A stretch of 64,000 nucleotides of DNA, from the NCBI GenBank assembly GCA_963803605.1, contig CAWDNG010000012.1, forward strand, positions 396,974 through 460,973. The letters are read 5' to 3'. The notes beneath the pieces were generated by a model. The model searched no databases. It saw nothing but the letters and a program-made list of their open reading frames with translations, and was not told the DNA's origin. Shown here piece after piece: positions 3,194 to 44,893 of the stretch. Both the position numbers and the translations under genes were made by a program. The first letter of the stretch is position 1. The number at the start of each line of letters is the position of its first letter. The stretch is from Terriglobia bacterium (GTDB taxonomy: Bacteria > Acidobacteriota > Terriglobia > Terriglobales > Acidobacteriaceae).

Positions 3194-4194
3194 ACGTCCT
3201 GCGATCGCCTGCGGTCGCAACTTCCATTGGCATCCAGCCATTCCAGCAAAGCGCGCACGCTGGCCCGGGCCAGGGCAATTGAGCAATCAGCAGCTCCGTA
3301 ATAGATGTTAATCGTGTCGCCGTCGGGGTCCATGGTGTATCCGCACGGGAACACTACATTGTTGACGTCGCCGTTGCGCTCGTAATCTGCCTCCGGCCCA
3401 AAAATCCATGAGTCTCCGCGCAGCAGACATTTTTCTGGCTTCTCCAGATCGAAAAGCGCCAGGCCCAACCGGTACAGACAGCCCGAAGGCGTGTGCCTCA
3501 CACCGTGGTAGAGCACCAGCCATCCTCTGGAAGTCTCGATGGGCGGGGGCGACAGCCCAATCTTGTTGGCGTCCCACCAGGCGCCACGGCGGGCTTCTAA
3601 CATCAACCGGTGCCTTCCCCAATGGTGCAGATCCGGAGAATAGGAAATCCACATGTGAGACCCGAGTGGCGTCATGGGTCGATGAATCAGCGCCCAGTAT
3701 CCATCGATTCTCCTGGGCAGAAGAGCTGAGTCTTTGTCGTCCGGCGGCATGATGACACCGTAACGCTCGAAGCTGCGAAAGTCTTTGGTCAGAGCCAGAG
3801 ACACGCCCGGACCGCCCCGCGAATACGAAGTGTAGGTCACGGCATATTGCTGCAGCTCAGGGACAAATGTGATGCGCGGGTCTTCGATTCCCCAGATCTC
3901 CTCGGGAAAATCGTTGGGGCTCGGCATCAGCGTCGGCTCGTGGTCGATTTGCCATCCATCCACTCCGTTAACAGAGCGCGCAGCGCAAAAATGCGACAAG
4001 CCGCGCCGGTCTTCGATGCGGCACAGCAGTAGAGTCGTTCCATCCTGCAGCAAAGTGGCCCCGGCATTGAACACGCTGTTGATGGAGTACGGCCAATGCT
4101 TGCGGGTCAGGATGGGGTTGGCTGGGTGCCGCAGAAGCAGCGGCGGGTAATGCTGGCCTTCGACGTTGATCAAAGTGGTTTCGGGAGCGGTCAT
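3190..4194 (-). CDS. GH130-family glycoside phosphorylase/hydrolase (beta-mannoside phosphorylase-like)
   Basis: 334-aa translation with NPIL..WPY..NSVFNAGA, IEDPRITF, GWLVLYHGV, NVVFPCG and IYYGAAD blocks, typical of the 5-bladed GH130 fold. The start overlaps the upstream gene's stop (ATGA at 4191-4194). Confidence 0.85.
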   Translation of the reverse strand: MTAPETTLINVEGQHYPPLLLRHPANPILTRKHWPYSINSVFNAGATLLQDGTTLLLCRIEDRRGLSHFCAARSVNGVDGWQIDHEPTLMPSPNDFPEEIWGIEDPRITFVPELQQYAVTYTSYSRGGPGVSLALTKDFRSFERYGVIMPPDDKDSALLPRRIDGYWALIHRPMTPLGSHMWISYSPDLHHWGRHRLMLEARRGAWWDANKIGLSPPPIETSRGWLVLYHGVRHTPSGCLYRLGLALFDLEKPEKCLLRGDSWIFGPEADYERNGDVNNVVFPCGYTMDPDGDTINIYYGAADCSIALARASVRALLEWLDANGSCDRRRSQDV

Positions 4195-17776: not shown

Positions 17777-18020
17777 CGAGCAATCCACACCAAAGAATTC
17801 CAGAAATCCGGATTGCGGAACTTTCGGTTGTGAGAAATGCAGGTCAGGAGAGGTGCATTTGTCAGACAGCAAGGCTGCAATTCAGGGAATCAGGGTTTGT
17901 ATTCGTCGGGAATAGGGATCTTCTGTTCGATCTGCTTGACCTTTTGCGGAGCGTGCTTGCGGAAGAGAAGCTTCAGGTCAGGCGTGAATTCAACCATGAT
18001 ATATAACGTGGCGTCGGAGC

Positions 18021-18443
18021 CTAGCTAAAGGCTGTTGCGAAACCCCGGTTTTTCAATTTGGCGGATAAAAGCCAGTAATTTCGTGGAGAGGTTGCGCGAT
18101 GGGGTTGGTTTGAGTTGCCGGCTTGAGCGGCAACTCGCCAAGGTCCGATCGGTTCCGCTGGCCCATGGCTCTCCTTGCCGGGTGGACCCATATTGCCGGC
18201 AGTCGACGCACTGTCGAGGACCAGAGAACCGAAAGGTCCAGCGCGAGCCGGATCGAACTCCATGCTTCCGACAACCGAAGTTGTGGGCGAGTCGGATGCG
18301 GCTTCTTTACCTTGATCGAAGCATGGTTGCGAGCGGACGACATGCGACTGGGAATTCCAATCGGCGGGCGGATTAAGACCGAGTAATAGACACAGCAGTA
18401 TCCAGCAGACCAGGCTGCAAGTTAGACGGAACCGTGTCATCAT
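18021..18443 (-). CDS. hypothetical signal-peptide-like protein
   Basis: The ATG at 18443 overlaps the TGA (18442-18440) of the reconstructed DUF6788-like gene (ATGA). The N-terminus is hydrophobic. Composition is otherwise unconvincing. Confidence 0.3.
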   Translation of the reverse strand: MMTRFRLTCSLVCWILLCLLLGLNPPADWNSQSHVVRSQPCFDQGKEAASDSPTTSVVGSMEFDPARAGPFGSLVLDSASTAGNMGPPGKESHGPAEPIGPWRVAAQAGNSNQPHRATSPRNYWLLSAKLKNRGFATAFS

Positions 18444-18566
18444 CGCGCATCGGCCTCGCGGGCGCGCCGCAAATTGCGCTCCTTATTTAACTCCGCCAGT
18501 TCCCGCAAACATTGCTGCATTTGTTGCCAAGCGGCTACCCCTGGGCGGGCGACATAGAAGTGGATG

Positions 18567-20302: not shown

Positions 20303-20640
20303 AAGGGGTCTCCTTTCTGTAGCGCATCTTGTCTGTACGTATACATACGTTCAGAATCATGCCACAAAAAAAGAAAACCCGCTAGATGCCCCTTCCATGT
20401 CGCCCGCCCGCTACCCCTTCTCGCGTGGCCTCCTCGGCTCCCTTGGGAACATAGTAGCCGGTGGTCTTTCCTTTCTCTCCGCGGTAGCTCACATTCAGCG
20501 GACCATGCTTGGGTCCATCGCCCTGACAATGACAGCCCGCTCGCCCGCAGGTGCGGTAGGTTTCCGAGAGCGTTCCAAAGACAGCCACCTCGGCCAGACG
20601 TTCAATCTCACGCAGCAGCTTACGTCGTTGGGCCGTAGCG

Positions 20641-22062
20641 TCAACCGACCTGGCCATGGTCCCTCCGACGCGCTTGATCGCGAGCAATAGAAAACAGATT
20701 CTTGGTAATCACACACCAGCCCACGTAGCGCTCAAATCCAAACCCTCCTTTATAGGTGGCCCGCCACATCGAAAAGGGATGCTTCAAGGTGCTGATGGTG
20801 GCTTCACAGCCGGCCCGCCAGCGCAGCACGCGCCGGAACCAGCGCTGCTTCTGTTGCTGCGATCGCGTGGCGGAAAGTCGTCCGCGCGCCGGCAGCGCCA
20901 CCTTCTTCACCCCCAGGGCTTGTGCCTCCCGCTCGTTTTGAGCAGAGAAAAATCCGCGGTCGGCGGTGGCCATCTCCGGCACTCGCCCGAAGCCAACTCG
21001 ATGTTGTTTCAGGGCCGGCATCCAGGCCGTGGTATCGTCCGGATTGCCGACGAAAACTTGGTAGCCGCTCACGATGCCGTTTTCCACCTCGTCAATCCGC
21101 ACCAGCCTACCAAACTCGTTCGGCTTATGCGTTTTGCCTTTGCGAATGACTTCGGTGTGGGGCTCGAACAGACTCAACACTTTGCCCTCTACGTGGCAGT
21201 TTCCATCCCACACCCGTTCCTTCGTTTGCCGGATGACCTTCTCCACCAGAGGAAGAAAGTGTCGCAGTTGGCCGATCTGCGTTTCTACGCGCAGTAGTTT
21301 GCCCACCACCTTCAGCCGTCCCTTCCCCCATCGTTGCACCACTTCGCTGGCCTGTCGCACCACGCTCCGGGTCAGCCCCACCAACTTCTGGTAACTATCC
21401 CGCATGCGCTGCTGGTTGGCCTGGGTCAGGCACTTGGCGGCGCGGCTGATCTCCAGCAGACGATGCTTCACCGCGCGCCCGTGATCGACCACTTCCAGGG
21501 CTCCGTCCGTACACTCGACGGCGATCCGTTGTAGGCTGCGGCTGAGCACGCGGATGCCGTCGCCCAAAAGCGAGCTATCGGTTGGGTAATGCACGTTGCT
21601 CTCAACTACGGTCGTGTCGGTGCGTAACCTATCGCCTCGGGCTACGCCTTGCTCGCAGGCGAGGCCGACCACTCGCTGATGAATCTCTGCCGTGACCGCC
21701 GGACTGAGCAGGGCAAAGCTGCGGCTGAAGGTCGTGAAATCGGGCGTAACCTCGGCATCGAAGTGGGTGAAGCGGCGGTACACCAGGTTGCTGCGCAGCT
21801 CCCGTTCCAGATCGCGGAAGCTCCAGCCCTTCAGATGCTTCATGACACAGCAGCGCAGCAGACGATCCGGGGCCATGCCGTCGCGCCCGGTGCGCGTCGA
21901 AAGTGGGCTGCGCGCGGCCAGACCTTGGCGGACCAAGTCGACCAGTGCGGGATCGTCCAAGAGCGCATCCACGGGATCGAGCAAATCGTCCTTGAGCAGC
22001 ACCGCTTGGCGGGCCAAGGGCGCGTAGAAGAGCCAGGCTTGGTGGGAAGTCGAGGGGATCAT
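20641..22062 (-). CDS. IS5/ISNCY-type DDE transposase (IS4/IS5 superfamily)
   Basis: DTTVVESNVHYPTDSSLL, GNPDDTTAWMPAL, ATADRGFFS, and C-terminal RWRAGCEATISTLKH..ATYKG..G..RYVGW.VI.KNL. Start chosen at MIPSTSHQAW (22062); the ORF-track start is 22125. I could not identify the element's ends. Confidence 0.8.
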   Translation of the reverse strand: MIPSTSHQAWLFYAPLARQAVLLKDDLLDPVDALLDDPALVDLVRQGLAARSPLSTRTGRDGMAPDRLLRCCVMKHLKGWSFRDLERELRSNLVYRRFTHFDAEVTPDFTTFSRSFALLSPAVTAEIHQRVVGLACEQGVARGDRLRTDTTVVESNVHYPTDSSLLGDGIRVLSRSLQRIAVECTDGALEVVDHGRAVKHRLLEISRAAKCLTQANQQRMRDSYQKLVGLTRSVVRQASEVVQRWGKGRLKVVGKLLRVETQIGQLRHFLPLVEKVIRQTKERVWDGNCHVEGKVLSLFEPHTEVIRKGKTHKPNEFGRLVRIDEVENGIVSGYQVFVGNPDDTTAWMPALKQHRVGFGRVPEMATADRGFFSAQNEREAQALGVKKVALPARGRLSATRSQQQKQRWFRRVLRWRAGCEATISTLKHPFSMWRATYKGGFGFERYVGWCVITKNLFSIARDQARRRDHGQVG

Positions 22063-22203
22063 AACGTACTCGACTATATCGATTAAGATTAATTCTGTCA
22101 AGCAACAAGAGTGGGATTCGTGCAATTCTTTTCAGGAAAGTGTGCGAAAAAAATAAGCGAACTTGTAGATCTGCCACGCCCCCGTGTCACCTACCCGCGT
22201 CAG

Positions 22204-22993
22204 TCAAGGGGTTGAGCCCTGTGTTTCACAACAGGCTTTAGCTAGAGCTTCGACAAACCGGCTCATGGTGCCGCCAAAAGTCCGGGATGGGGCAGGGTAG
22301 TAGGCATTCTGTAAAGAGCTGACCGCGAGCGTGCCGAAAAGTTCCGAGGAGTTGAACTCGCTCTGTCCGGTGTCGCTTCTGGTGATCAGCACGCGGGTTG
22401 CGGCATACCAGGCGCGGCCAAACAACCGTTTCCGGTCAGAAGGGAAGTAGCGCGGGTCCTGGTGCAAAAGGGTCGACAGCAGAAAGCCCTGGACGAAGCG
22501 GCGGGATTCGGTGTCGGCCAACGTTGCCCCGAAGCGCTTTCCCCAACCCTGCATGCCGCCGCCATACTCGGGCCATTGGGCCCACATCTGCGACCATGTG
22601 GCTTCAAAGCCAGCGGCCGCGAAAGGTGTACGGGGAATAGGTGTGCCTTAAGAAAAGCTCATACTTGCATTTCCGCGTCAGAGGCAGGTATGCGGAGGGA
22701 GCCTCGGTATGGCCGGATCGGTGCACTTGCTTGCGTGGGATTCTTGCCTGGCATCCGGACTTTGAGGTCATCGATTGCGCATTCGGAGGCCGGGCGGCCA
22801 TGATCGATTGGGAGCCGCCAACCGCTCCCGCGGTGGAATCACCCGAGGAGATTTCCCCGGGCGCTGCCTGCGGACGGGTCGACTGGGCCCAGCCCAGAAC
22901 TCCCATGCGAGTCATGCCGGCGGACCAGCGCAGACGCGGGCCCCTGAGGTCGCTCAGGGTCTCCGCGTCCGCAAGAAAGTAAGCATAGGCCAC
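22204..22993 (-). pseudogene. hypothetical protein gene with a +1-nt frameshift (or homopolymer sequencing error)
   Basis: ..KYELFLRHTYSPYTF runs into TGA at 22604. Dropping one T of the TTT (A3 at 22622-22624 on the plus strand) continues AAAGFEATWSQMWAQWPEYGGGMQGWGKRFG..HQDPRYF. The GTG start abuts the upstream stop. Confidence 0.6.
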
Positions 22994-29954: not shown

Positions 29955-32733
29955 ATGAAGTCTCTTACGCTGAGTGTCCAGGCTGTATTGCTTTTGGTTT
30001 GTACAATTTGGTGGGCCGCCCCGATGCAGGCCCAGTTTCGCGCCTCGTTAAGAGGTACAGTGACCGACCCTCAGGGCGCAGTGGTTCCGGGGGCCAGCGT
30101 CACGCTGACGAACAAGGGCACAAACGCCACTTTGACCTCTATTTCCGACGACAATGGCATCTATCAGTTTAATGCGCTGCCGCCGGCTCCTTACCGGCTG
30201 ACTGTGGAACGCTCCGGCTTCCGGCGGAGAGTGCTGGACAGCGTGCAGATTATTCCGGAACAGCTCAATGCGCTCGACCTGCAGCTAGAGGTGGGGGAAG
30301 TGAGTCAGACTATAACCGTGACCAACACCGTTCAGGCGCTGGATACGGAGACAGCCACAGTCAGCGGCACGGTCACCGCGAATCAAATTCAGCACATGCC
30401 GTCGTTCGGGCGGGATGTGATCAAACTTGCACAATTGGCTCCCGGCGTCTTCGGTAATGGCGCGCAGGGAGCCGGCGGCAACGGTTTTAATCTTCCCGGT
30501 ACGCAGACTGGTGGAGGGGCCACGGGTGGCGAAGACGGCATCTTCAAGACTGAAAACGGCGCACAGGTTATCGCCAACGGCAACCAGACCGAGAACAACG
30601 GCATTTCCATTGATGGCATCAGCACCACGAGCGCTGTCTGGGGCGGAGCCACAATCATTACGCCATCCGAAGACTCCGTAGATAACGTGAAAGTCGTCGC
30701 CAATAGCTACCACGCAGAGAACGGCCGCTTCAGCGGCGCCCAGCTCCAGATCACTTCCAAGGGCGGTACCAATAACTATCATGGCAGCCTCTTTTTTACG
30801 GCTCACCGTCCGGGCCTGAACGCTTTTCAGCGGTTCAATGGCGAAAACCAAACGTGGTACGAGACCCAACTTTTTTCAATCAGTTAGGCGGCAGCGTCGG
30901 TGGCCCGATCTGGAAAAATAAGATTTTTGCCTTTTTCGCCTACGAGACGATCCGAAGCCCCCAAGGCCAGACCAGAATTGCCAACAACTGGTACGAAACC
31001 CCGGCTTTCGACGCTTCCGCGCCTGCTGGAAGCATAGCCGCCACTTATCTCGGCTTCCCCGGTGCCGGCGTTATTAGCAGAGGCATCAATCCTTCCACCT
31101 GCGCCGATGCCGGCCTGAACGAAGCCGTAAACTGCGCAACCATTCCCGGCCAGGGACTGGATATCGGTTCTCCCTTGACGTCAGGCCTGGGTACGCAGGA
31201 CCTTAGCTGGGTCAGCGCCACCACTCCCGGCGTGGGCAATGGGCTGGATGGTGTGGCGGACATCGCAAATTTCATTACTGCCAGCAACAGCCACTTTTCG
31301 AAAGCTCAGTACAATGGCCGCCTCGATGCGAATGTCACGAATAACGATCGTGTCGGTTTTGCTATCTACTGGTGCCACAGTCAACCACATTCCTCAACGG
31401 CCCGGCGCGTGAATACAGCCTGTTCAACCATTCGCAAATCAATAACGCCTACTCCGCCATCTGGAACCACACTTTCTCGCCGACCTTCCTGAATGAATTT
31501 CGCGTGAATGCCGCCGGATGGCGCTGGAATGAGATCGACTCCAATCCGCAGTCGCCGGTTGGACTTCCCACGGCGTTCATTGATTAAACTGGAAATCTGG
31601 GCGCCAACAACAATGCTGCCGGCAACTCGATAGAGTCTTTTGGGCCAAGCGTCGGCAGCATCCTGAATCAGTGGACTTACAGCTTCAAAGATGTGGCAAC
31701 CAAAATTATTGGACGCCACACGCTCAAGTTCGGCGCCGATATTACGCGCCTTTTCTACCTGAACGAGTGTGCCGGCTGCGGCGTCCCCAACTACAACTTT
31801 TTCAATATCTGGGACTTCCTCAACGATGCGCCGCACAAAGAAAACGGAGGCTTCGATCCCACAACTGGGGCGCCGACAACGCAGCGCCAGGACGACCGCG
31901 AAAACATCCTGGGATTCTTTGTCCAGGATGACTTCAAACTCCGCAGAAATCTGACACTCAACCTTCAGTTCATGGCGGAGGCTCAATTTACCTGGGCCAA
32001 AAGTTTGGACACCAGTTCCGGGCCTTACTTCGAACAGCCTTACCCGTTCGACCTCAATACGAATTACGGGCGGTCAGACTACGACGTCTCCAAGGCGTTC
32101 AAGCTTTTTGCTACCTGGCAGCCGGTCTTCTTCCGCGGCAACAGAAATTGGTTGGAGAAGATTGCCGGTGGCTGGTCGCTTAGCGGTATTTTCAACCTTC
32201 ACTCCGGATTCCCCTGGACACCGGTAGTGAGCGTTCAGGGCGGTAGCCTCTATTGCGGAACTTGTGGTTATACGACGCTGTTTCCTACCACTTACCTGGG
32301 AGGCGCGGGCACCAGCACCAGCAACGATGCTTTCAAGACTCCTGCCGATTCGAACTTTCCTAAAGGCGGCGCGGCGTATTTCGTTGCGCCGGCACCCTGC
32401 TCGCCCACTCAAACAGCGAATTGCTACACCGCCTTCAGCTCCGGCTTCGGGTCCGCGCTTCCTCCAACCCCCGGAGTTCACCGCAACTCACTCAACGGCG
32501 CCGGATACAAAGACCTGGATCTGACGCTCACCAAAGCTTTCGGTTTGCCGAACATGCCCGTACTCGGCGAAAACGCCCGGGTTGAGTTCCGAATCGATCT
32601 CTACAACGTGTTTAACAATTTGAACTTCGACCCGAACACCATTTCGGACAACATCGCTGCTGGTAACTTCGGCACGTACACGGCGGCACTTTCTGGCCGT
32701 GTCGTCAATCTGGGGGCCCGGTTCAGTTTCTAG
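29955..32733 (+). pseudogene. TonB-dependent receptor with CarboxypepD_reg-like N-domain, disrupted (2 frameshifts and 1 in-frame TAA)
   Basis: Four colinear ORF pieces: 29955-30887, 30854-31492, 31372-31587 and 31693-32733. First frame change at about 30840-30855 (A-runs). Second at 31370-31373 (..AIYW|VPQSTTFLNG). A TAA at 31585-31587 interrupts the otherwise continuous ..PTAFID*TGNLGANN..ILNQWTYSFKD. Confidence 0.8.
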
Positions 32734-34105
32734 AGGAGGCCCGAAGGGAGAAACTTGGCTTTACGCACTTTGGTCTTGCGCAACAGGGGTGTTCCCTGTC
32801 TCTTACTGCAAGTTGTTCTACTGCTGTCTTATGCGCCAGGACTGCACGGTCAGACAACCTCGCAAGAGAGCGTCGAGATCGATGTGCGGGCACCGACCAC
32901 TCCATTCCCCCATTTTTGGGAGCAGATGTTTGGTTCGGGGCGCGCCATTCTTTCGTTGCGCGAGAGCTATCGCGACGATCTTCGGGCGGTAAAGGCAGTG
33001 ACCGATTTCCGCTACGTTCGCTTCCACGCGATCCTGCACGATGAGCTCGGGGTTTACAACGAGGACGAACACGGCGAACCGGTGTACAACTTCGCCTATG
33101 TGGACCAGGTGTACGACGGGTTGCTCAGCAATGGAATCCGGCCTGTAGTTGAAATCAGTTTCATGCCAAAAAAGTTGGCGTTCAATCCGGATGCGCTCCA
33201 TCCCTTCTGGTACAAGCCGAATGTGTCACCGCCCAAAAGCTGGAAACGATGGGATGGTCTGATGGTCCACTTTGCCCGTCATCTGATCGAACGTTACAGA
33301 ATTGACGAAGTATCGCAATGGTATTTTGAAGTGTGGAATGAGCCCAATATAGATTTCTGGGGCGGAATTCCAAGGGAGAAGTCCTATTTCGAACTCTACG
33401 ATCACACTGCCCGGGACTTGAAGAGCGTAAGCCAGCGGATCCGTGTAGGCGGCCCTGCCACTGCGGCCGCGGCGTGGGTGGACGACTTTCTGAAGCACGC
33501 GGCAGAGAGCCACTCGCCCGTGGATTTCGTTTCCACCCACCGATACGCGGACGACAGTGTGCCACGAGCACGAAAAGTCGCAAGGCTGAGTAGTGCGTAA
33601 CTGCTTAACTGATGAGGGTAGGCCCCTCGGAACCGGTCTGCAGGGACAGGTTCCAAACCACCTTCGGCGGCTGTGGACAAAAGCCATGGTCGTGAGCACA
33701 GAAGGAAAAGGCCTGGCAAGGACCAGGTCAGGTGACAGGCAAGAAGAGGACCGCAAGGGAACCACTATGGAAGTGTCGAAAGCGTAGGGACGATGTCAAA
33801 ACCGTGGGGGTGTCGTTATCACGGGACAAAGCTCCGACGAAACCTGTTTACGGGCGGAGCGGCATCCGGCATGAGAGGTGGCCTGAGCTTGCCAAAGAGG
33901 CGGTTGAGCGGAACGTGGGAACCTGAGACTCCGATGCGAACGGAGAAGTCACAAGTGGCAGAACCACAAGGACGAGAGTACGAAGGCGGAGACTCAGGGG
34001 CGGAACAGCGCGTAGTAGCCGAGAAGTCCTCGATAAAGGGATGGAGCGAAGGCGCTGTATCAAGGAGCCTGATTCAATGAGCCAACCAGCAATGGGAGGA
34101 GCCCG

Positions 34106-35365
34106 ATGAGTGAGGCAAAGCCGTTTTGTATTTCGAAGAAGGAGGTTTGGGAAGCGTACAAACGGGTCAAAGCAAATAAGGGAGCAGCAGGGGTTGATGA
34201 TCAATCGATCGAAGATTTTGAGAAAAGGTTGAAGAAGAATCTTTACAAGATCTGGAATCGGATGTCATCGGGCAGTTACTTTCCGCCACCGGTGAGGACG
34301 GTAAAGATACCAAAGAAAAACGGTGGCGAAAGAAAACTGGGTATTCCCACAGTAGCCGATCGCATTGCGCAGCAGGTAGTCAAGGCAAGACTGGAACCGG
34401 AAGTAGAGCCGCTGTTTCATGCCGATTCCTACGGATATCGACCGGGGAAGTCGGCATTGGATGCAGTGGGTCAAGCGCGAGAAAGATGCTGGCGCTATGA
34501 CTGGGTTCTTGATCTGGATATCAGGAGCTTCTTTGACAGCCTTTCACAAGATCTACTACTCCGGGCGGTCAAGAAGCATGCCAAGGAGCGGTGGATCGTT
34601 CTCTACATCGAGCGTTGGCTGAAAGCGCCAGTGCAAGAAGAGGATGGGCGGTTGGTTCCGCGTGAGAAGGGCACTCCACAAGGTGGAGTAGCCAGCCCAC
34701 TGCTGGCGAATCTGTTCTTGCATTATGCGTTAGATCGATGGCTGGCGGTGCACTATCCTCAGGTGCCATTTGAGAGGTACGCCGATGATGTCATCGCGCA
34801 CTGCAAGACGGAGAAGGAAGCCCAGGAAATGAGGAAGGCCATTGCTGAACGTTTGCAGACTTGCGGACTGGAACTCCATCCGGAGAAAACGAAAGTCGTC
34901 TATTGCAAGGATGATTTTCGGAAGAAGAAGTACCCAAACGAAAAGTTTGATTTTCTCGGTTACAGCTTTCAACCTAGGAGATCAAAGAACCGCAAGGGGA
35001 AGTTCTTCATCAATTTCAGTCCCGCGGTCTCGAACAAAGCAGCGAAGGCAATTCGCGACACTTTTCGGCGCTGGAACCTGCCTAACCGCAGCGACAAGGC
35101 GATTGAAGATCTGTCGCGGATGTTTAATCCGATTATCCGAGGCTGGCTCCAGTATTACGGGCGCTACTATCGCTCGGCGCTTTATCCGACGATGCGCGAA
35201 CTGAACCAAGATCTGGTCCTGTGGGCCAAGCGTAAATACAAAAAGCTGCGCCACCATCACCGACGGGCAGCAGGCTGGATCGCGCGCATTTCGCGGCGCG
35301 CTCCGGAGTTGTTTGCTCACTGGCAGATGGGGGTGCGGCGTGGCTCCATGGTGGGAGCTGTATGA
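34106..35365 (+). CDS. group II intron reverse transcriptase/maturase (no endonuclease domain)
   Basis: RT blocks GVDDQSIEDF, RTVKIPKKNGGERKLGIPTVADRIAQ, GTPQGGVASPLLANLFLH, RYADDVIAHC (YADD), FDFLGYSF, and an X/maturase block RGWLQYYGRYY. 419 aa. Confidence 0.95.
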   Translation: MSEAKPFCISKKEVWEAYKRVKANKGAAGVDDQSIEDFEKRLKKNLYKIWNRMSSGSYFPPPVRTVKIPKKNGGERKLGIPTVADRIAQQVVKARLEPEVEPLFHADSYGYRPGKSALDAVGQARERCWRYDWVLDLDIRSFFDSLSQDLLLRAVKKHAKERWIVLYIERWLKAPVQEEDGRLVPREKGTPQGGVASPLLANLFLHYALDRWLAVHYPQVPFERYADDVIAHCKTEKEAQEMRKAIAERLQTCGLELHPEKTKVVYCKDDFRKKKYPNEKFDFLGYSFQPRRSKNRKGKFFINFSPAVSNKAAKAIRDTFRRWNLPNRSDKAIEDLSRMFNPIIRGWLQYYGRYYRSALYPTMRELNQDLVLWAKRKYKKLRHHHRRAAGWIARISRRAPELFAHWQMGVRRGSMVGAV

Positions 35366-35388
35366 GCTGAGAGGTTCATGTACAGTTC
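35355..35388 (+). ncRNA. group II intron domain V
   Basis: GAGCUGUAUGAGCUGAGAGGUUCAUGUACAGUUC has the same architecture as the textbook DV (GAGCCGUAU..GAAA..ACGUACGGUUC): AGC triad, GNRA (GAGA) loop, 34 nt. Confidence 0.85.
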
Positions 35389-36327
35389 TGAGAGAGCCTC
35401 GGGGTGAAACTCCCCGGGGCTACTCACCCCGTGCAGAATCTTTTTGGAACCGACGAAAACATTCCTGAAGACGACCGGGTCTGCTGCGCGATCGCCAAGG
35501 CCAGGAAAGAGATTCAAGCATCGTCCTTGCCGCGACTGCCGCTGTTCTGGACCGAGTGGAATGTGCCCGGCAAGATGGAAGCCCGCGACACGACCTATGT
35601 GGGGCCGGCATTGGCCAACACGGTGCGGGAATGCGACGGCAAGGTGGACATCATGTCGTTCTGGACGTTTTCTGACGTCTTCGAAGAGAACGGGCCGATT
35701 CCCAAGCCGTTCGTCGGAATGTTTGGCTTGCGTGCCAAGGGGGGGAATCAACAAGCCAAGCTACTACGCCTACAGCCTGCTCCATAAACTGGGAACCAAT
35801 CGCCTTGCTAACCCTTCCCAGAACGTAGTCGTCACAAAAACCGCAACCGGCGGCCTAGCCATAGCGGCATGGAACCTGGTCGATCCAGGACAATCGGGCA
35901 CGATCCGCCATATGACATTCATATTTGCCGGTCTCCCTGCGTCGGCTAAGGCCATGCTGCAAAGCGTCGACAGCGAACATGGCAACGTGTTGAAGGAGTA
36001 TGCCGCCATCGGCGCACCGCTCGATCCGACACCGCTGCAGGTGGCGCAGCTGAATCGCATGACTGCATTGCCTGCTCCCGAGCCCCTGGCCATTCGTGAC
36101 AACCGGCTGGATATCGAGCTCTCTCCGAATGCGCTGGTGCTGATCAACGTCGTTCTCCAAGACCGCATTCAGAAAGATTGAAACCACAGGCATTCGAATT
36201 TCTGAGGAGGCGAATCGTTTCCTGCCTGACTCCGAAGCGCTACGCTCATCCAAACATATAAGATGAAGCAGGTTTAGTTCGAGCCGGGGTTGTAGTCAGC
36301 CGGCAGCATCCAGGAGAAACGAAGAGC

Positions 36328-38859: not shown

Positions 38860-41800
38860 GTGAAATCTCCTTGTTTCCTGCTCAGGGCTTCTCTCTTGGT
38901 ATTTTTGTGCGTGTGTGCAAGCGTTTACAGCACTGCACTTGATTCATCGCCCAGCTCAGCTTCGGACACCACAACCAGCGCGAAGTCGCCTGAAGTTCCG
39001 GCGCCGACCTCAGTCACGGGGGCCAGCGTAGTCATCCCGGGACCGCTGCGTTCTTTTTTGCGCATGGCCGGCGTCAGCCAGAAGATCTCAACCGAAGAAG
39101 TGCTGCCTCTGCTGGCGCGCAACGTAGCCATTGAAGGCTACCAGGGGCGCAAAGACAAGGCGGGCAGGCCCACGGAATTTCTGGTCCTGCTCAAACGATA
39201 TGTGGAACAGGCCAGGGAACTGGTTACACTGGCGGGCCCGGAAGGGGTCATCCGAGTTTCCAACTGCGATCAGGCGGGTCCGTTGCTGAACGTACTCGGC
39301 TATCGGCTGCGCCAGGGCTGCGGCAAGGACGCTGCCCTTGAGACTGCTGATCCCGAAAGCGCCTTCTTGACTATCGATTCCGGATTCCCGCTCGCTGAAC
39401 TTGAACAAACCCTGCAGGGAGGCGAGCCATTTGCCTGTCATTTTGCCAACACTCCAGTCCCGCTGTTGTTCTCGCCCGACGATTGGATCCAGGCGGGCGC
39501 CAAGGAGTCTCACGATAAACAGAATGATGTGCTGGATTCATTGCTCGACGACCCGGCGCTGGCCAGGCTCTACTGGGCCATGGCGCGGATGGATACCGAA
39601 ACCAGCGCCAGCCTGCGGCAATTTGCGGGGATATCGAGGCTGCTTCCTTTCGCACCCGTTCTAGATTTTTACGGTAGTCATATCTCCATTCGGCAGGGAC
39701 GGGTGGTGGTGCCGGGGGGAGTGGCCGCCGAACCCGCCTGGAAGCAACTGGCGGGAGCCAATCCTGAATCGCCGAAAGAGTTTGTGGCACGGCTGCTGGC
39801 GAAGGATGACGGCTGGCTGGCCGCCTATTTCGACACCCTCTCCCGCCTGACTCCGGCCCAGCAGGTTTACTTCACCGACGCTCATCGTTTGCCTCGTTTC
39901 TACGAGGCATTGCGCGGAAATGACATCGGAGCGGGCCCGGCCCGTCCGGTTTTCCGGCCCGATCCCGACTTGCTGCTGCTGGTGACCCGTCTGGATCTGG
40001 ATTCGTCGGGCCAGCCCAAGGTCCCAGGAAATCTGGAGGCGTGGGAGCAGATTCTCCACCAGAAAACCGATTCCAAGGTGGTGCGCCGTTGGGCCAGGCG
40101 CGCCAGCCATTGGAAGAGTCCCGATCAACTGGTGGAGGCGCTGTTTGCTTTCTCCCGGCAGAGTTCCGAAGACGGGCCCCTGCGAATCTATCTGATGCTG
40201 AGTGCGATCGATGGCGCCCGGCCACCAGAGCGGCGTTTGAGCCCGCCTACGGTCCTTCTGCTGGCGCAAAGATTTTCCCGGTATGGAAATCAGTATCTGA
40301 CTTTCTCCGAGTTCGGCGGCTTGAACGACGATTCCATCACTCGTTTTCTGGAAGTGGCAGAAAGCATTGATCGGATTTCCAATGTCACGCTGCGGGCCAA
40401 TGCGCTGGGCATCTTTCAGGCCAACGTGGGATTGTGGCAAATCCTGGCGCGCCAGGGGCAGATCCCGACCCAGGAAGAGAACCCTTCCTGGCAGGCAGTG
40501 ATCAGTCCCTTTGCAGTCCGGATCTCCTCTTCCACGCAATTGTTCGACTCCGCCCAAACCTCGGTGCGGGAATTGTGGCGCGCTGCCGCCGGCCGTCCGA
40601 ATCTTTCCCAGGACGAAGTGGTTAACCTGCTGGCCGGTCCGAGTCAGTCAAGCCCCGACGGCAGAAGAGTCCGGCAGGAACTGGCCGACAGAATGCGCGC
40701 AGTGCTGGATGGCCAGAGGCTGGTTTCCCTGGATACTCTACTGGCTTTGGGCCAGGGATTGAATGAACTGGCGCAGGGCAAGGCCGTGGGCGATACGCTG
40801 CTTCCCCTGGCCGGGCAGCTCAAGGAATTTGAGATGCCCCGCCCTATGTTTACCAGCGGCGAACGCAGCGAATGGGCAGCCGGGTTTTACAACACGCGGC
40901 ACAGTTCGCTGCAGACGCGAACCGATCTGGCCAAGATCATCAAATCCAGCAAATCGAAGAAGGAATTGGTGGATGCGCGCGGCCTGGTCGTCCCCTTCCT
41001 AAGGGACACGCTGGTGGGCTTGAACTATGCCTACTACGAGCCACCTGGGGCGCAGATTATTCTCAACAATCCGCTTTTCGTGCGCTCCCACGACTTTTCG
41101 GGAGAAATGGCGATGGGAGGAGGACAGTCCTGGCGCGTGCCGCATGTATTCGGGTCGGGCTTGCCCGCTGGCGGAGGCGCCCATCTGGCGGGCTCGCTGG
41201 CGGACCTCCCATTCGTCCTGGCAGAAGCCGAGCAGGACTTTATCGTGCCGGAAAATGTTCAGGCCTTGATCTGGCATGAGTTGGTGCCCGGACTGGTCAG
41301 CAGCGCAACCCTGCCACGCTGGTGGGGTGTCAGCCGAAATGAGTTGCACGCTGTCTCTCTCTATCAGCGAACGGGAGAGGAACTTCTAACCGCCGCCACA
41401 CAGGATGAGAAACTGCGACAGACCGTGCTGGATATTGTTTCCGAGCGCATGGCCCCGCAGCGCTCCGAGCAAATCGAGAAGGCCCTGAACGCCGGCGCCG
41501 TCGAAGACGCGCTTGCCCGGGTGTTGCCCGGCGAAACTTTCTACCTGGCGGCGGAATTCCGGCATAGGTTTCCTGGTCCCAACACCCACTGGGGAAAGGC
41601 GGGAGAGGAACTGGAGGAACTTTCTACCCGATATCCGGCGGAGGTCAGTTGGAAACGGATATCCGACGATTTCGGCGTCCCGCATCCCGCGTTGGCGCAA
41701 AGTTATTCTCTGGAGTTGCTCAATGTAAAACCCTTTCCGGCGTTCATGGGCTATTCCAGCCGCTTGCTGGCGGAGTCGTGGGACTCCAACAATTTGTACT

Positions 41801-42012
41801 GGGCCCGGCTGGCGGATGAACTGGGTTATTCCCCGGCCATGCTGAACCGGTTGGTCCCCGAACTCACCTATCGCATGGTGGAGAAGATATTTGCCACCGA
41901 CTTCGAGGATTGGCCGGCCATGCTGCGGGCGATGCGCGAGACCGGCGACGAATTCCGGCGGGGAAAGATTACCACGTTGCCGAAAGTTGCTTTGAGCTCG
42001 ACCGTTCAATAA
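38860..42012 (+). CDS. large (1050 aa) secreted protein of unknown function
   Basis: GTG start, signal-like MKSPCFLLRASLLVFLCVCASVYS, and uninterrupted protein-like composition. I recognise no domain. Confidence 0.85.
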   Translation: MKSPCFLLRASLLVFLCVCASVYSTALDSSPSSASDTTTSAKSPEVPAPTSVTGASVVIPGPLRSFLRMAGVSQKISTEEVLPLLARNVAIEGYQGRKDKAGRPTEFLVLLKRYVEQARELVTLAGPEGVIRVSNCDQAGPLLNVLGYRLRQGCGKDAALETADPESAFLTIDSGFPLAELEQTLQGGEPFACHFANTPVPLLFSPDDWIQAGAKESHDKQNDVLDSLLDDPALARLYWAMARMDTETSASLRQFAGISRLLPFAPVLDFYGSHISIRQGRVVVPGGVAAEPAWKQLAGANPESPKEFVARLLAKDDGWLAAYFDTLSRLTPAQQVYFTDAHRLPRFYEALRGNDIGAGPARPVFRPDPDLLLLVTRLDLDSSGQPKVPGNLEAWEQILHQKTDSKVVRRWARRASHWKSPDQLVEALFAFSRQSSEDGPLRIYLMLSAIDGARPPERRLSPPTVLLLAQRFSRYGNQYLTFSEFGGLNDDSITRFLEVAESIDRISNVTLRANALGIFQANVGLWQILARQGQIPTQEENPSWQAVISPFAVRISSSTQLFDSAQTSVRELWRAAAGRPNLSQDEVVNLLAGPSQSSPDGRRVRQELADRMRAVLDGQRLVSLDTLLALGQGLNELAQGKAVGDTLLPLAGQLKEFEMPRPMFTSGERSEWAAGFYNTRHSSLQTRTDLAKIIKSSKSKKELVDARGLVVPFLRDTLVGLNYAYYEPPGAQIILNNPLFVRSHDFSGEMAMGGGQSWRVPHVFGSGLPAGGGAHLAGSLADLPFVLAEAEQDFIVPENVQALIWHELVPGLVSSATLPRWWGVSRNELHAVSLYQRTGEELLTAATQDEKLRQTVLDIVSERMAPQRSEQIEKALNAGAVEDALARVLPGETFYLAAEFRHRFPGPNTHWGKAGEELEELSTRYPAEVSWKRISDDFGVPHPALAQSYSLELLNVKPFPAFMGYSSRLLAESWDSNNLYWARLADELGYSPAMLNRLVPELTYRMVEKIFATDFEDWPAMLRAMRETGDEFRRGKITTLPKVALSSTVQ

Positions 42013-43270: not shown

Positions 43271-44893
43271 ATGTTCTCCGCCAATCGACGTCGTTTCTTG
43301 CGTCAGGTTTCTGCTGCTGGAATCGCATGTTCCGCCAACTTCGCCTTCGGCCGTTTTCTGTCCGCCCAGACGTCAGGATCCAGCGACCTGGCGAGAATCT
43401 ACGTGGACTCGCGGCGCACCCTCGCCCCGATTGATCGCAATCTTTTTGGCTCTTTTCTCGAACATCTCGGGCGTGCCATCTACGAGGGGATTTACGATCC
43501 CGGCTCGAAGCTTTCGGACTCGAACGGTTTCCGCAAGGATGTGATGGACGAAGTGCACCACCTGGGAGTTCCCATCGTCCGCTATCCCGGGGGAAATTTT
43601 GTCTCGGGATACAACTGGCTCGACGGCGTGGGACCCAGGCAGGACCGTCCGCGGGTGCTCGACAAGGCCTGGAATGCGATCAACACCAATCAGTTCGGCA
43701 CCAACGAATTTATGGCATGGTGCAAGGCGGTCGGTACCCAGCCCCTGATGGGCCTCAATCTAGGTACTGGAACTGCGGAACAAGCCGCTGCCCTGGTGGA
43801 ATATTGCAATGTGGAGAAGGGCACGCAATGGAGCGACCTGCGCCGCAAGCATGGTTTCGCCGAGCCCTACAGCGTGAAGCACTGGTGCCTGGGAAACGAG
43901 ATGGACGGCCCCTGGCAGATCGGCCATATGACGGCCACCGAGTACGGTCTCAAGGCGCAGGATGCGGCGCGCCAGATGCACGCGGTGGATCCATCTCTTC
44001 AGCTCATCGCCTGCGGCTCGAGCGGGCCTTTCATGCCCACCTACCTGGAATGGGACCGCGAAGTCCTGGAGCAGTGTTACGACTACGTGGATGCTCTCTC
44101 CCTGCATCGCTATGTAGGGAATACGGCCGAAGAAACTGGCAACGACAGCTCGAAATATCTGGCCATGAATCTGAGCATGGAGAAACAGATCGCGGAGACA
44201 CTTGCGGTTTGCGATCTGGTGCGCGGGCACAAGCGGTCTCCCAAAAAACTGTGGCTCTCGTTCGATGAGTGGAATGTGTGGTATCGCGCGCGCACCGGGG
44301 ACGCGGTGAACGGTCACGGCCAGGAGGCGCCGCATCTGCTCGAAGAGGTTTACAACCTCGAAGATGCGCTGCTGGTGGGCGGGATCCTCAATTCTCTGAT
44401 TCGCAATGCTGACCGGGTAAAGCTGGCTTGCCTGGCGCAGTTGATCAATGTGATTGCTCCCATCATGACCAACCCAAACGGCCTGTTCCGGCAGACGATT
44501 TTCTATCCTTACAGCTGGGCGCTGCAATTCGCCCGCGGCTCCGTGCTTAACCTGCTGGTGGAATCTCCCACTTATGAAGTTTCAGGAATGGGCCAGGTTC
44601 CGTACCTGGACGTTGCCGGAACGGTCAGCTCGGAAGACGGCAAAGTTTCCCTGTTCATTCTCAACCGGGATTTGTCCAAGGCCCACGCCCTCGAGGTGAA
44701 TTGGGAGGACAAGGCGCCGGCACGGGCCCTCTCATCGGTTTTGCTGACTGGTGACGACCTGAAAGCTTTCAACAGTTTCGAGACGCCGCAAAAAGTGTCG
44801 CCGCGAACTCTGGACAAACCTTCGATCGCGGGAGGGCGGGCGAAGTTTGAGGTTCCAGCTCGCTCCTACGCGGTCATTCAGTGGGGGGCGTGA
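43271..44893 (+). CDS. abfA: GH51 alpha-L-arabinofuranosidase with Tat-type signal
   Basis: RRRFLRQVSAAG twin-arginine motif. GSFLEHLGRAIYEGIY, VRYPGGNFVSGYNW, WCLGNEMDG (acid/base E), SFDEWNVWY (nucleophile region). Confidence 0.9.
   Translation: MFSANRRRFLRQVSAAGIACSANFAFGRFLSAQTSGSSDLARIYVDSRRTLAPIDRNLFGSFLEHLGRAIYEGIYDPGSKLSDSNGFRKDVMDEVHHLGVPIVRYPGGNFVSGYNWLDGVGPRQDRPRVLDKAWNAINTNQFGTNEFMAWCKAVGTQPLMGLNLGTGTAEQAAALVEYCNVEKGTQWSDLRRKHGFAEPYSVKHWCLGNEMDGPWQIGHMTATEYGLKAQDAARQMHAVDPSLQLIACGSSGPFMPTYLEWDREVLEQCYDYVDALSLHRYVGNTAEETGNDSSKYLAMNLSMEKQIAETLAVCDLVRGHKRSPKKLWLSFDEWNVWYRARTGDAVNGHGQEAPHLLEEVYNLEDALLVGGILNSLIRNADRVKLACLAQLINVIAPIMTNPNGLFRQTIFYPYSWALQFARGSVLNLLVESPTYEVSGMGQVPYLDVAGTVSSEDGKVSLFILNRDLSKAHALEVNWEDKAPARALSSVLLTGDDLKAFNSFETPQKVSPRTLDKPSIAGGRAKFEVPARSYAVIQWGA

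What the first reader, a model, noticed from the sequence alone, without database searches (positions are those of the whole stretch)
33557..35423. Complete group II intron inserted in sense orientation inside a GH39 glycosidase coding sequence
The GH39 reading frame is colinear with the family up to ..VDFVSTHRYADD (33555). It resumes at ..PVQNLFGTDENIP..WTEWN..WTFSDVFEE from about 35424. The 1.87 kb between has every hallmark of an intact, mobile group II intron:
- 5' GUGUG.
- A 419-aa En-minus RT/maturase with YADD.
- A 34-nt domain V (35355-35388) that overlays the textbook DV, with AGC triad and GNRA loop.
- A DVI-like hairpin and a ..CUAC 3' end.
- TGTCGT at 33811-33816, about 255 nt into the intron, which is exactly complementary to the last six exon-1 nucleotides ACGACA (an EBS1/IBS1 pairing).

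Bacterial group II introns normally sit outside ORFs or behind terminators. A sense-strand insertion in an enzyme gene implies splicing-dependent expression or recent retrohoming.

Caveat: GUGUG..AC boundaries leave the two exons one nucleotide out of frame. One extra C in the C4 run at 35427-35430 would repair this. A bulged-A alternative fold of DVI would move the 3' site by a few nt.
Basis: partly seen in the sequence, partly recalled or inferred. Interest (0 to 1): 0.7.

Follow-up and report, generated by a model that had tools for sequence, protein, structure and literature searches.

The report
YADD-homing group II intron in GH39
A complete, recently mobile group II intron from a known lineage that normally inserts into the 'YADD' active-site codons of reverse-transcriptase genes has landed in a glycosidase gene, because that enzyme happens to encode the same YADD motif with the same DNA.

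Summary
The intron is real and complete. Rfam matches domain I and domains V/VI, and there is an intact 419-aa RT/maturase with no endonuclease domain.

The true extent is 33557-35428 (1872 nt), not 35423. Five other copies that differ by 0-1 nt share exactly these ends. With this 3' end the GH39 exons join in frame to ..STHRYADD-T-VQNLFG.., colinear with all 120 uninterrupted homologs retrieved.

It is a class D (IIB-like) intron of the already described lineage that homes into the RYADD codons of RT genes (M.a.I5, P.l.I2, B.th.I3). Identical and related copies in about 45 loci sit right after Y/F-A-D-D codons of other RT genes.

The GH39 site TACGC-G-GACGACA pairs 5/5 with EBS2 and 7/7 with EBS1. 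This is an off-target insertion by homing-site mimicry.

Splicing-dependent expression is unproven and doubtful. GH39 carries a separate +1 frameshift in a G7 run, and the adjacent TonB-dependent receptor is a clear pseudogene.

Verdict: a new member of a known kind in an unusual host gene. Moderate interest.

The parts
32755..33556 (+). GH39 exon 1. The TTG start at 32755 is tentative. It ends ..VDFVSTHRYADD plus the first base (A) of the next codon, and contains the WNEP motif.
   Evidence: Pfam PF01229, E=7e-69, profile positions 3-228. Colinear with 120 homologs.
33544..33548 (+). IBS2 (TACGC, positions -13..-9). These are the Tyr codon and the first two bases of the Ala codon.
   Evidence: 5/5 pairs with EBS2. 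Positions -13, -10 and -9 are invariant in 25 distinct RT-hosted sites.
33550..33556 (+). IBS1 (GACGACA, positions -7..-1). These are the two Asp codons plus one base. Position -8 (33549, the Ala wobble base) is left unpaired.
   Evidence: 7/7 pairs with EBS1. Positions -7, -6, -4 and -3 are invariant in 25 RT-hosted sites.
33557..35428 (+). Complete class D group II intron, 1872 nt, 5' GUGUG ... CUACUCACC 3'.
   Evidence: Ends defined by five other copies with 0-1 nt differences in different flanks. Rfam hits. The 3' boundary is homologous to that of the curated class D intron Pa.de.I1.
33614..33733 (+). Part of ribozyme domain I, matched by Rfam group-II-D1D4-2.
   Evidence: 108 bits against a gathering score of 36, E=2.6e-21, full model 1-118.
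33782..33786 (+). EBS2 (GCGUA).
   Evidence: Co-varies with positions -13..-9 of the target in retargeted relatives: GUCA(A)/TGAC, CGUUA/TAACG, CCUAU/ATAGG.
33811..33817 (+). EBS1 (UGUCGUU), in the loop of a hairpin CCGUG...CACGG.
   Evidence: Co-varies with positions -7..-1 in relatives: GUUUGC/GCAAAC, GUAAGU/ACTTAC, UUUCCA/TGGAAA. The hairpin stem shows compensatory changes.
34106..35365 (+). Intron-encoded protein (RT domain plus maturase X domain, no D/En domain), 419 aa, intact. It lies in domain IV.
   Evidence: Pfam RVT_1 E=7.8e-43 and GIIM E=3.6e-16. 60.1% identity to the class D Pa.de.I1 IEP. The best PDB match is the GsI-IIC RT, E=2.7e-50.
34778..34789 (+). The intron's own YADD codons (TACGCCGATGAT). 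This is an unoccupied match to the family's target motif.
   Evidence: One of only two matches to TAYGCNGAYGAY in 64 kb; 0.12 expected by chance.
35355..35388 (+). Domain V (AGC triad, GAGA tetraloop).
   Evidence: RF00029 alignment. Fold z-score -3.8.
35392..35425 (+). Domain VI, with the bulged branch-point A at 35422, followed by the 3' tail ACC (35426-35428).
   Evidence: MFE and centroid fold. RF00029 alignment.
35429..36181 (+). GH39 exon 2 (CC completes the Thr codon, then VQNLFGTDENIP..TEWN..). It is broken by a +1 frameshift in the G7 run at 35739-35745.
   Evidence: The ORFs 35404-35787 and 35444-36181 are in two different frames. All homologs read GLRAKGGINKPSYY. This is the only run of 7 or more G in the window.
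29955..32733 (+). TonB-dependent receptor pseudogene immediately upstream of GH39. The receptor-GH39 gene pair is conserved in L089 and L090.
   Evidence: tblastn with two homologs shows frame changes near 30848 and 31372, a TAA stop at 31585-31587, and about 235 aa missing at 31965/31966.

Best explanation
Positions 33557-35428 are a full-length bacterial class D (IIB-like, endonuclease-minus) group II intron that looks active. It belongs to the known sub-lineage whose homing site is the DNA that encodes the RT active-site motif (R)YADD.

The intron RNA recognises its target by base pairing. EBS2 (GCGUA) pairs with TAYGC. EBS1 (NGUCGUU) pairs with GAYGAYN. The G residues of the EBS face the synonymous C/T third codon positions, and the four-fold degenerate Ala third position (-8) is left unpaired.

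GH39 enzymes of this acidobacterial clade carry a conserved ..H-x-Y-A-D-D-T-V.. peptide. Here it is encoded by TAC GCG GAC GAC A, a perfect 5/5 plus 7/7 match. The intron therefore reverse-spliced into the sense strand of the glycosidase gene as an off-target event caused by homing-site mimicry.

By analogy with the class D intron RmInt1, insertion probably occurred into the transiently single-stranded lagging-strand template at a replication fork, with cDNA synthesis primed by nascent DNA. This step is inferred.

The event is recent. If the gene is transcribed, splicing would rejoin the exons in frame to ..RYADD-T-VQN... The host locus seems to be decaying, however: GH39 has a +1 frameshift and the adjacent receptor gene is dead. 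The insertion therefore probably costs the cell little.
For: Identity and completeness of the intron:
- Rfam D1 and DV/DVI hits.
- Intact RT and X domains in the IEP.
- DVI with a bulged A 7 nt from the 3' end.

Boundaries and recency:
- Copies L001-L005 differ by 0-1 nt of 1872 and share the same ends in four different flanks.

Frame:
- The spliced product reads ..VDFVSTHRYADDTVQNLFGT... All 120 homologs read ..H[GAR]YADDT.. with no insertion.

Lineage behaviour:
- The identical copies sit at NYADD|LVIC, RYADD|TILGF and RFADD|LVIL inside RVT_1 ORFs.
- Relatives with 60-99% IEP identity, from Acidobacteriota, Chloroflexia, Gammaproteobacteria, Spirochaetota, Nitrospira and others, do the same.
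- In 25 distinct RT-hosted sites, the invariant positions are exactly the non-synonymous bases of the Y-A-D-D codons.

Pairing:
- The window site scores 7/7 and 5/5.
- Sub-lineages with other targets carry compensatory EBS1/EBS2 changes; there are 12 EBS types.
- TAYGCNGAYGAY occurs only twice in the 64-kb window: at the occupied GH39 site and in the intron's own IEP. 0.12 matches are expected by chance.
- Uninterrupted GH39 genes encode the same target: TAYGCGGATGACA in L087, L089 and L090.

Class:
- 60.1% IEP identity and 62% whole-intron nucleotide identity to Pa.de.I1. Pa.de.I1 is listed as class D together with M.a.I5-3 and the B. thuringiensis israelensis and P. luminescens introns (PMC3552965 Table S1).
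- The RYADD-homing behaviour of those introns is described in PMC2504315 section 13.

Orientation:
- GC skew of the + strand is positive in 13 of 15 windows, as expected for insertion into the lagging-strand template (weak evidence).

Host decay:
-.
Against: - No transcript data are available, so neither splicing nor its absence is shown.
- The GH39 frameshift lies in the only G7 run of what is probably a nanopore-derived assembly, so it could be a base-calling error. In that case GH39 may still be functional after splicing.
- The replication-fork mechanism is borrowed from RmInt1 and was not tested.
Membership of that exact sub-lineage rests on shared behaviour and on similarity to another class D intron.
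- No empty-site allele of this same GH39 was found. The closest homolog is 85% identical, and the neighbouring gene is not on record.
Confidence: 0.8

Rival explanations
1. Functional interrupted gene. The intron is efficiently spliced, GH39 is expressed only through splicing, and the G7 frameshift is a sequencing error.
For: - The intron is in sense orientation, with exact in-frame exon junctions.
- EBS/IBS pairing is perfect, and splicing needs the same pairing.
- The ribozyme and maturase are intact.
- WNEP in exon 1 and TEWN in exon 2 (the motifs I take to be catalytic) are present.
- The frameshift is in the only G7 homopolymer of the window.
- The related copies come from long-read MAG assemblies.
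Against: - The receptor gene immediately upstream, paired with GH39 in L089 and L090, has a nonsense codon, two frameshifts outside long homopolymers and a deletion of about 0.7 kb. These are not base-calling errors, so the locus is under relaxed selection.
- The six intron copies agree at every homopolymer, which argues for good consensus quality.
- There is no expression evidence.
Confidence: 0.2
2. Assembly artefact. A multi-copy 1.9-kb repeat was wrongly threaded into the GH39 locus during metagenome assembly.
For: The intron is a repeat with at least 6 copies in the same community, and contigs from that sample are rich in repeats and IS elements.
Against: - Both flanks are the two halves of one GH39 gene.
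- They are joined at single-nucleotide precision, in frame, at a site that is a perfect IBS2/IBS1 match. A mis-join would not produce this.
Confidence: 0.02
3. An old, vertically inherited intron position in this GH39 clade, as with organellar or cyanobacterial housekeeping-gene introns.
For: The YADDT motif and its coding DNA are conserved in the clade, so the site is long-lived.
Against: - All 120 closest homologs are full length and uninterrupted.
- The intron is 99.95-100% identical to copies in unrelated RT genes.
- No GH39::intron junction was found in the JGI metagenome scan.
Confidence: 0.02

Closest known systems
RT-active-site-homing class D introns: M.a.I5 (Methanosarcina acetivorans), UA.I3, P.l.I2 (Photorhabdus luminescens), and B.th.I3 of B. 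thuringiensis israelensis ATCC 35646 (Dai & Zimmerly 2003; Tourasse & Kolsto 2008, PMC2504315)
   Same: - About 1.87 kb long, with an endonuclease-minus IEP of 415-420 aa and a B-like ribozyme.
- Insertion is immediately after RYADD codons plus one base (published target AGGTATGCTGATGACT; here CGATACGCGGACGACA).
- Only IBS1 and IBS2 are conserved in targets.
- They form nested or tandem twintrons. I see the same for identical copies and relatives of this intron.
   Different: - This copy sits in a glycoside hydrolase gene, not in any RT.
- The published hosts are group II IEPs or, for B.th.I3, a retron-like RT.
- I could not make a direct sequence comparison with those named introns.
RmInt1 (Sr.me.I1) of Sinorhizobium meliloti, the experimental model for class D / IIB3 introns
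   Same: - The IEP is 419 aa and consists of RT and X domains only.
- The IBS2(-13..-9)/IBS1(-7..-1) layout with -8 unpaired is, from memory of the RmInt1 literature, the same.
- RmInt1 reverse-splices into the lagging-strand template and has documented ectopic insertions.
   Different: - Its target is different (the ISRm2011-2 transposase gene).
- The mechanism is inferred here, not tested.
Pa.de.I1 of Paracoccus denitrificans (curated class D intron; CP000491 19065-20924)
   Same: - 60.1% IEP identity and 62% nucleotide identity over the whole intron.
- Same 5' GUGUG, and a 3' end six nucleotides after the branch A.
   Different: - It is inserted in an IS66 transposase gene at ..AAGTATGCGGATCATC|.
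- Its EBS1 is changed accordingly.
Bacterial group II introns in conserved cellular genes (for example the E. coli groEL stop-codon intron, PMC12584367, and the cyanobacterial housekeeping-gene introns reviewed in PMC4424553)
   Same: A sense-orientation intron in a non-mobile protein-coding gene whose expression would require splicing.
   Different: - Those introns are specialised for their host gene site.
- Here the host site is an accidental mimic of the normal target, and the host locus seems to be decaying.

Membership tests
Group II intron (ribozyme plus IEP retroelement) | 5' GUGYG; domain V with catalytic AGC triad and GNRA loop; domain VI with a bulged A 7-8 nt from the 3' end | tested here: met
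   GUGUG at 33557. RF00029 at 54.4 bits against a gathering score of 40. DV at 35355-35388. Bulged A at 35422, 7 nt from 35428.
Group II intron (ribozyme plus IEP retroelement) | Domain I structure with EBS1/EBS2 loops that pair with the 5' exon | tested here: met
   RF01999 at 108 bits. EBS1 pairs 7/7 and EBS2 5/5 with the exon. Covariation is seen across 12 EBS types.
Group II intron (ribozyme plus IEP retroelement) | RT plus maturase (X) ORF in domain IV | tested here: met
   Pfam RVT_1 E=7.8e-43 and GIIM E=3.6e-16. YADD is present.
Group II intron (ribozyme plus IEP retroelement) | Self- or maturase-assisted splicing, and retromobility | not testable with these tools
   There is only indirect evidence for mobility: at least 6 copies with 0-1 nt differences at different sites.
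Bacterial class D (IIB3) introns | IEP without a D/En domain, about 400-420 aa | tested here: met
   419 aa. Only RVT_1 and GIIM are found, with 33 residues after GIIM.
Bacterial class D (IIB3) introns | IEP groups with curated class D members | tested here: met
   60.1% identity over 419 aa to the Pa.de.I1 IEP. Pa.de.I1 is listed as class D in PMC3552965 Table S1. The PDB match to the class C-type GsI-IIC RT is much weaker (175 bits). No phylogenetic tree was built.
Bacterial class D (IIB3) introns | Class-specific C-terminal signature after domain X (PMC3552965) | not tested
   The C-terminus ..RAPELFAHWQMGV.. is conserved among relatives (L070). It was not compared with the published consensus.
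RT-active-site (RYADD) homing sub-lineage of class D | Inserted after the (R)Y/F-A-D-D codons plus one base, with IBS2/IBS1 formed by those codons | tested here: met
   The window site is CGA TAC GCG GAC GAC A|. Identical copies and relatives sit at the same position in about 45 loci.
RT-active-site (RYADD) homing sub-lineage of class D | The host gene is a reverse transcriptase (a twintron or another retroelement) | tested here: not met
   The host of this copy is GH39 (Pfam PF01229). The feature is met for the other identical copies L001-L005. This copy is therefore an off-target insertion by a member of the lineage.
RT-active-site (RYADD) homing sub-lineage of class D | 58-67% nucleotide identity to M.a.I5, UA.I3, P.l.I2 and B.th.I3 over the whole length | not tested
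   Those sequences were not retrievable with the tools. Identity to another class D intron, Pa.de.I1, is 62%.
Glycoside hydrolase family 39 (host gene) | Pfam PF01229 match, and colinearity with family members across the junction | tested here: met
   E=7e-69 for exon 1. 70-85% identity to 120 homologs, with no homologous protein sequence spanning the intron.
Glycoside hydrolase family 39 (host gene) | Uninterrupted reading frame after intron removal | tested here: not met
   An extra G in the run at 35739-45 shifts the frame before ..INKPSYY... A sequencing error cannot be excluded.

The most novel reading that the evidence does not exclude
The GH39 gene is still functional: the G7 frameshift is a base-calling error and the intron splices. 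On this reading, an intron lineage specialised to parasitise RT genes is colonising a conserved cellular enzyme gene purely because the enzyme shares the peptide motif YADD, in the same codon phase, with its normal target. Every GH39 of this acidobacterial clade (all encode TAYGCGGAYGACA) would then be a standing target. Mimicry at the level of a peptide motif would be a general route by which retroelement-homing introns move into housekeeping genes.
Probability: 0.2. Interest if true: 0.5.

Novelty: new member of a known kind. Interest (0 to 1): 0.4.

Why it matters
- It corrects the annotation. The intron spans 33557-35428, the exons are in frame, and the intron is class D.
- It explains why a bacterial group II intron sits inside an enzyme gene. 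The intron was not selected for that gene. It belongs to a lineage that hunts the most conserved codons of reverse transcriptases, and GH39 carries the same 13 nucleotides.
- It is a natural specificity experiment. It shows that about 12 paired nucleotides (IBS2 and IBS1) are enough for insertion and that RT-specific flanks (-21, +7) are dispensable. It also shows that this family produces off-target hits in cellular genes; an SDR gene in L015 is a second sense-orientation case.
- It documents a large, previously uncatalogued expansion of this lineage in soil Acidobacteriota MAGs, with EBS retargeting events that could be mined for targeting rules.
- It does not reveal a new kind of element.

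Tried and rejected
Rejected from the copy comparison and the DVI fold.
- **Looking for the window's own contig or an empty-site allele.** An exact look-up of the neighbouring aldo-keto reductase found nothing on record. The closest GH39 is only 85% identical.
- **JGI metagenome scan for a GH39::intron 5' junction** (F-[VI]-S-[ST]-H-x-YADD followed by GTGYGCC): 0 hits.
- **Dai & Zimmerly 2003 (PMC1370365)** could not be read. Its content is cited only through PMC4424553, PMC2882425 and PMC2504315.
- **The "B.th.I3" name.** I first assumed it placed the lineage in Toro's group g2. The g2 B.th.I3 is a different intron (pBMB67, 1970 nt). The ATCC 35646 intron (AAJM, 1866 nt) is listed under class D.
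- **S. meliloti plasmid hits (63.7% identity).** I considered that they were RmInt1. The locus inspected (L091) is instead two tandem ltrA genes between an 'RT domain-containing' ORF and a 'maturase-specific domain' ORF, which looks like a twintron of this lineage. I did not use it as an RmInt1 comparison.
- **Local MFE folding of intron positions 206-300** did not reproduce the EBS1 hairpin. I relied on covariation instead.
- **tblastn matches longer than 1257 nt.** I took these as a possible sign of insertions in the IEP. The matches run past the intron's 3' end, most likely into the related maturase region of the host IEP; I did not check this directly.
Full report

Yes, with one correction.
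- A gathering-threshold Rfam scan of the whole 64-kb window gives exactly two hits, both on the + strand inside the reported interval. Group-II-D1D4-2 (RF01999) matches 33614-33733 at 108 bits, E=2.6e-21. Intron_gpII (RF00029, domains V and VI) matches 35353-35428 at 54.4 bits, E=6.5e-08.
- The ORF at 34106-35365 (419 aa) matches Pfam RVT_1 (E=7.8e-43) and GIIM (E=3.6e-16) and nothing else. It is an RT/maturase without a DNA-binding or endonuclease domain.
- The flanks match Pfam Glyco_hydro_39. Exon 1 covers profile positions 3-228 (E=7e-69) and exon 2 covers positions 252-332.

**2. Boundaries and reading frame**

An exact-protein look-up of the IEP found six other contigs, five from ENA assembly ERZ25039533 and one from Logan run ERR11718635.
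- In five of them the whole intron is present. It differs from the window copy at 0 or 1 of 1872 positions.
- All copies start GTGTGCC and end CTACTCACC. The sequence diverges immediately outside, in four different flanks.
- The intron is therefore 33557-35428, not 33557-35423.
Three base pairs and the tail ACC follow it, so it lies 7 nt from the 3' splice site.
- The curated class D intron Pa.de.I1 ends at the homologous position (..GCGCGACTCGCT|).

With this 3' end, exon 1 ends in phase 1 (..GAC GAC A) and exon 2 begins CC GTG CAG. The spliced product is ..VDFVSTHRYADD-T-VQNLFGTDENIP... All 120 best GH39 homologs (70-85% identity, mostly Terriglobales and Acidobacteriaceae) read ..VDFVS[ST]H[GAR]YADDT[VA].[ND][LM]FG.. 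with no gap or insertion there.

**3. What kind of intron is it, and why is it here?**

The flanks of the other copies give the answer. The intron sits at ..AAT TAT GCC GAT GAC C|TT GTG (NYADD|LV)..AGA TAC GCC GAT GAC A|CG ATT (RYADD|TI) and ..CGA TTC GCG GAC GAT T|TG GTG (RFADD|LV). Each of these lies inside an ORF with RVT_1 upstream and GIIM downstream, which is the IEP gene of another group II intron.

A scan of one genome per GTDB species with the IEP returned 80 loci, with 301 confirmed relatives in all.
- IEP identity is 72-99% in Acidobacteriota MAGs, many from the MFD series.
- It is 59-70% in Chloroflexia, Gammaproteobacteria, Spirochaetota and others, and 75-82% in the Nitrospira and Methylomirabilota hits.
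- About 45 of the 80 show the same arrangement: an intron immediately after [RN]-[YF]-A-D-D codons plus one base.
- In 25 distinct RT-hosted sites, the invariant positions are -13 T, -10 G, -9 C, -7 G, -6 A, -4 G and -3 A. These are exactly the non-synonymous bases of the Tyr-Ala-Asp-Asp codons.
- Positions -11, -5 and -2 are C or T, and -8, -1 and +1 are free.

This behaviour is already described. [quoted passage not shown] According to that paper:
- they are about 1.8 kb long and lack the endonuclease domain;
- they are B-like in structure;
- they share only IBS1 and IBS2 between targets.

Reviews describe the resulting nested arrays in Methanosarcina (PMC4424553, PMC2882425). Toro & Martinez-Abarca's Table S1 lists the following as class D (PMC3552965):
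- M.a.I5-3 (1875 nt, 415 aa);
- the B. thuringiensis israelensis intron (1866 nt);
- the P. luminescens intron (1882 nt);
- Pa.de.I1.

The window's IEP is 60.1% identical over its full length to the Pa.de.I1 IEP (hit H19; the coordinates fall inside the curated intron). The whole introns are 62% identical. I therefore assign the window intron to class D and, by behaviour, to the RYADD-homing sub-lineage.

**4. Target recognition**

- EBS1 is UGUCGUU (33811-33817), in the loop of a hairpin whose stem shows compensatory changes across relatives.
- EBS2 is GCGUA (33782-33786).
- Sub-lineages that have moved to other targets carry matching changes in both elements. Examples are GUUUGC/GCAAAC with GUCA/TGAC (L018, L019, L026), GUAAGU/ACTTAC with CGUUA/TAACG (L036-L040), CCUAU/ATAGG (L042, L044, L047) and UUUCCA/TGGAAA (L066, L071, L085). 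There are 12 EBS types in all.
- Across 38 distinct intron/site combinations, the mean is 6.6 of 7 EBS1 pairs and 4.4 of 5 EBS2 pairs. Cross-lineage combinations give 4.0 of 6 and 2.4 of 5.

The GH39 site scores 7/7 and 5/5, which equals the maximum seen for the RT sites.

The pairing scheme fits a coding target well. G residues of the EBS lie opposite the three synonymous C/T positions (TAY, GAY, GAY), so both codons are read through G-C or G-T pairs. The unpaired -8 position coincides with the four-fold degenerate base of the Ala codon. This is my reading.

Further points:
- Uninterrupted GH39 genes of the clade encode the same target: TAT/TAC GCG GAT GAC A (L087, L089, L090).
- TAYGCNGAYGAY occurs only twice in the window: at the occupied GH39 site and in the intron's own IEP (34778-34789). 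0.12 matches are expected by chance.
- The window matches 9 of the 11 strongly conserved positions of RT sites. The two misses (-21 and +7) lie outside IBS1 and IBS2.

The simplest explanation is off-target retrohoming into a mimic of the homing site. Here the mimicry exists at the peptide level, with YADD in the same codon phase.

**5. This is not the only off-target event in the family**

- In L015 a relative with 94% IEP identity interrupts a short-chain dehydrogenase gene in sense orientation (Pfam adh_short, E=3e-55). The site is GA TAC GCC GAT GGC T, read in a different frame as D-T-P-M-A.
- In L023 a relative with 88% IEP identity lies antisense inside a HEAT-repeat protein gene.

**6. 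State of the host locus**

After removal of the intron, GH39 is still broken.
- All homologs read ..GLRAKGGINKPSYY...
- The window has one extra G in the run at 35739-35745. The frame shifts from the 35404-35787 ORF to the 35444-36181 ORF.
- This is the only run of 7 or more G in the window, so a base-calling error cannot be excluded.

The gene immediately upstream is a TonB-dependent receptor. It is paired with GH39 in L089 and L090. In the window it is unambiguously a pseudogene. Against two homologs it shows:
- frame changes near 30848 and 31372, neither in a long homopolymer;
- an in-frame TAA at 31585-31587;
- a loss of about 235 residues at 31965/31966.

I conclude that the locus is under relaxed selection. 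"Splicing-dependent expression of a working glycosidase" is possible but is the less likely reading, at about 0.2. From my own knowledge of GH39, the catalytic acid/base Glu lies in WNEP and the nucleophile Glu lies in TEW. These fall in exon 1 and exon 2 respectively, so an unspliced message could not give active enzyme. Translation of such a message would stop at 33598-33600, after 14 intron-encoded residues.

**7. Mechanism (inferred)**

Class D introns lack the endonuclease. RmInt1 reverse-splices into the transiently single-stranded lagging-strand template and uses nascent DNA as primer (abstract of PMC8914252; PMC2504315 proposes the same for the RYADD-homing introns). The + strand of the window has positive GC skew in 13 of 15 windows. 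That is the orientation expected if the sense strand of the intron lies on the lagging-strand template. This evidence is weak and consistent only.

**8. Artefact check**

A mis-assembly through a repeat would not place the two halves of one gene around the intron at single-base precision, in frame, at a perfect IBS match. The window also shares a 1.8-kb IS (20410-22244) at 99.6-100% identity with contigs L001 and L004, which carry intron copies. The window and those contigs therefore come from the same or a very closely related population.

**9. Verdict**

The feature is real, complete and recently mobile. It is a new member of a known kind: a class D intron of the RYADD-homing lineage. Its host gene is unusual and the reason for that is clear. 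Interest 0.4.

Noticed in passing
window 29955-32733 (+): The TonB-dependent receptor gene directly upstream of GH39 is a pseudogene. It has two frameshifts (near 30848 and 31372), an in-frame TAA at 31585-31587 and an internal deletion of about 235 aa at 31965/31966, relative to the syntenic homologs in L089 and L090.
   Followed up: yes
window 35739-35745 (+): A G7 run carries one G more than the GH39 reading frame allows; all homologs read KGGINKPSYY. It is either a real frameshift or a homopolymer base-calling error. It is the only run of 7 or more G in the window.
   Followed up: partly
window 20410-22244 and 18020-18542: An IS element whose transposase ORF lies at 20641-22125 (- strand; Pfam DUF772 and DDE_Tnp_1). 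It is 99.6-100% identical to copies next to intron copies in L001 and L004. A further 523-bp segment is also shared with L001.
   Followed up: partly
L022, L030, L056, L058, L059; L091 (S. meliloti plasmid pMl3, CP140952.1 131394-137650): Head-to-tail tandem intron copies (..CTCACC|GTGYGCC..) and two ltrA genes in a row between split RT-related ORFs. Because only the 5' exon is recognised, an occupied site can apparently be invaded again, which builds arrays like those described in Methanosarcina.
   Followed up: partly
L018/L019/L026; L036-L040; L041/L042/L044/L047/L074/L084; L061; L066/L071/L085: Sub-lineages of the same intron family have left the YADD target for other sites (for example GAYGACGGGCAAAC| and CCGGTAAYGCGACTTAC|) with matching EBS1 and EBS2 changes. 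I did not determine what those new targets are.
   Followed up: partly
L015 (intron 2453-4323) and L023 (intron 2448-4323): Two other off-target insertions into cellular genes. One is sense, inside a short-chain dehydrogenase gene, at a YADD-like DNA site read in another frame. The other is antisense, inside a HEAT-repeat protein gene.
   Followed up: yes
window 34778-34789; L048, L070: The intron's own IEP encodes a matching target (TACGCCGATGAT) that is empty here. In L048 and L070 the invaded host ORFs are IEPs of this same family (they end ..LFAHWQMG.. / ..LFIHWELG..), so the family invades itself.
   Followed up: partly
L087 (ENA ERZ25039533 contig_54388): The same metagenome that holds the identical intron copies also holds an uninterrupted GH39 (P0009, 79% identical) whose site TATGCGGATGACA is a good IBS match but is unoccupied.
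   Followed up: no
window 38860-42012 (+): A 1050-aa ORF with no Pfam match at E<=0.001. It lies between a NAD-dependent epimerase/dehydratase-family gene and a VWA-domain gene. An alpha-L-arabinofuranosidase gene follows at 43271-44893.
   Followed up: no
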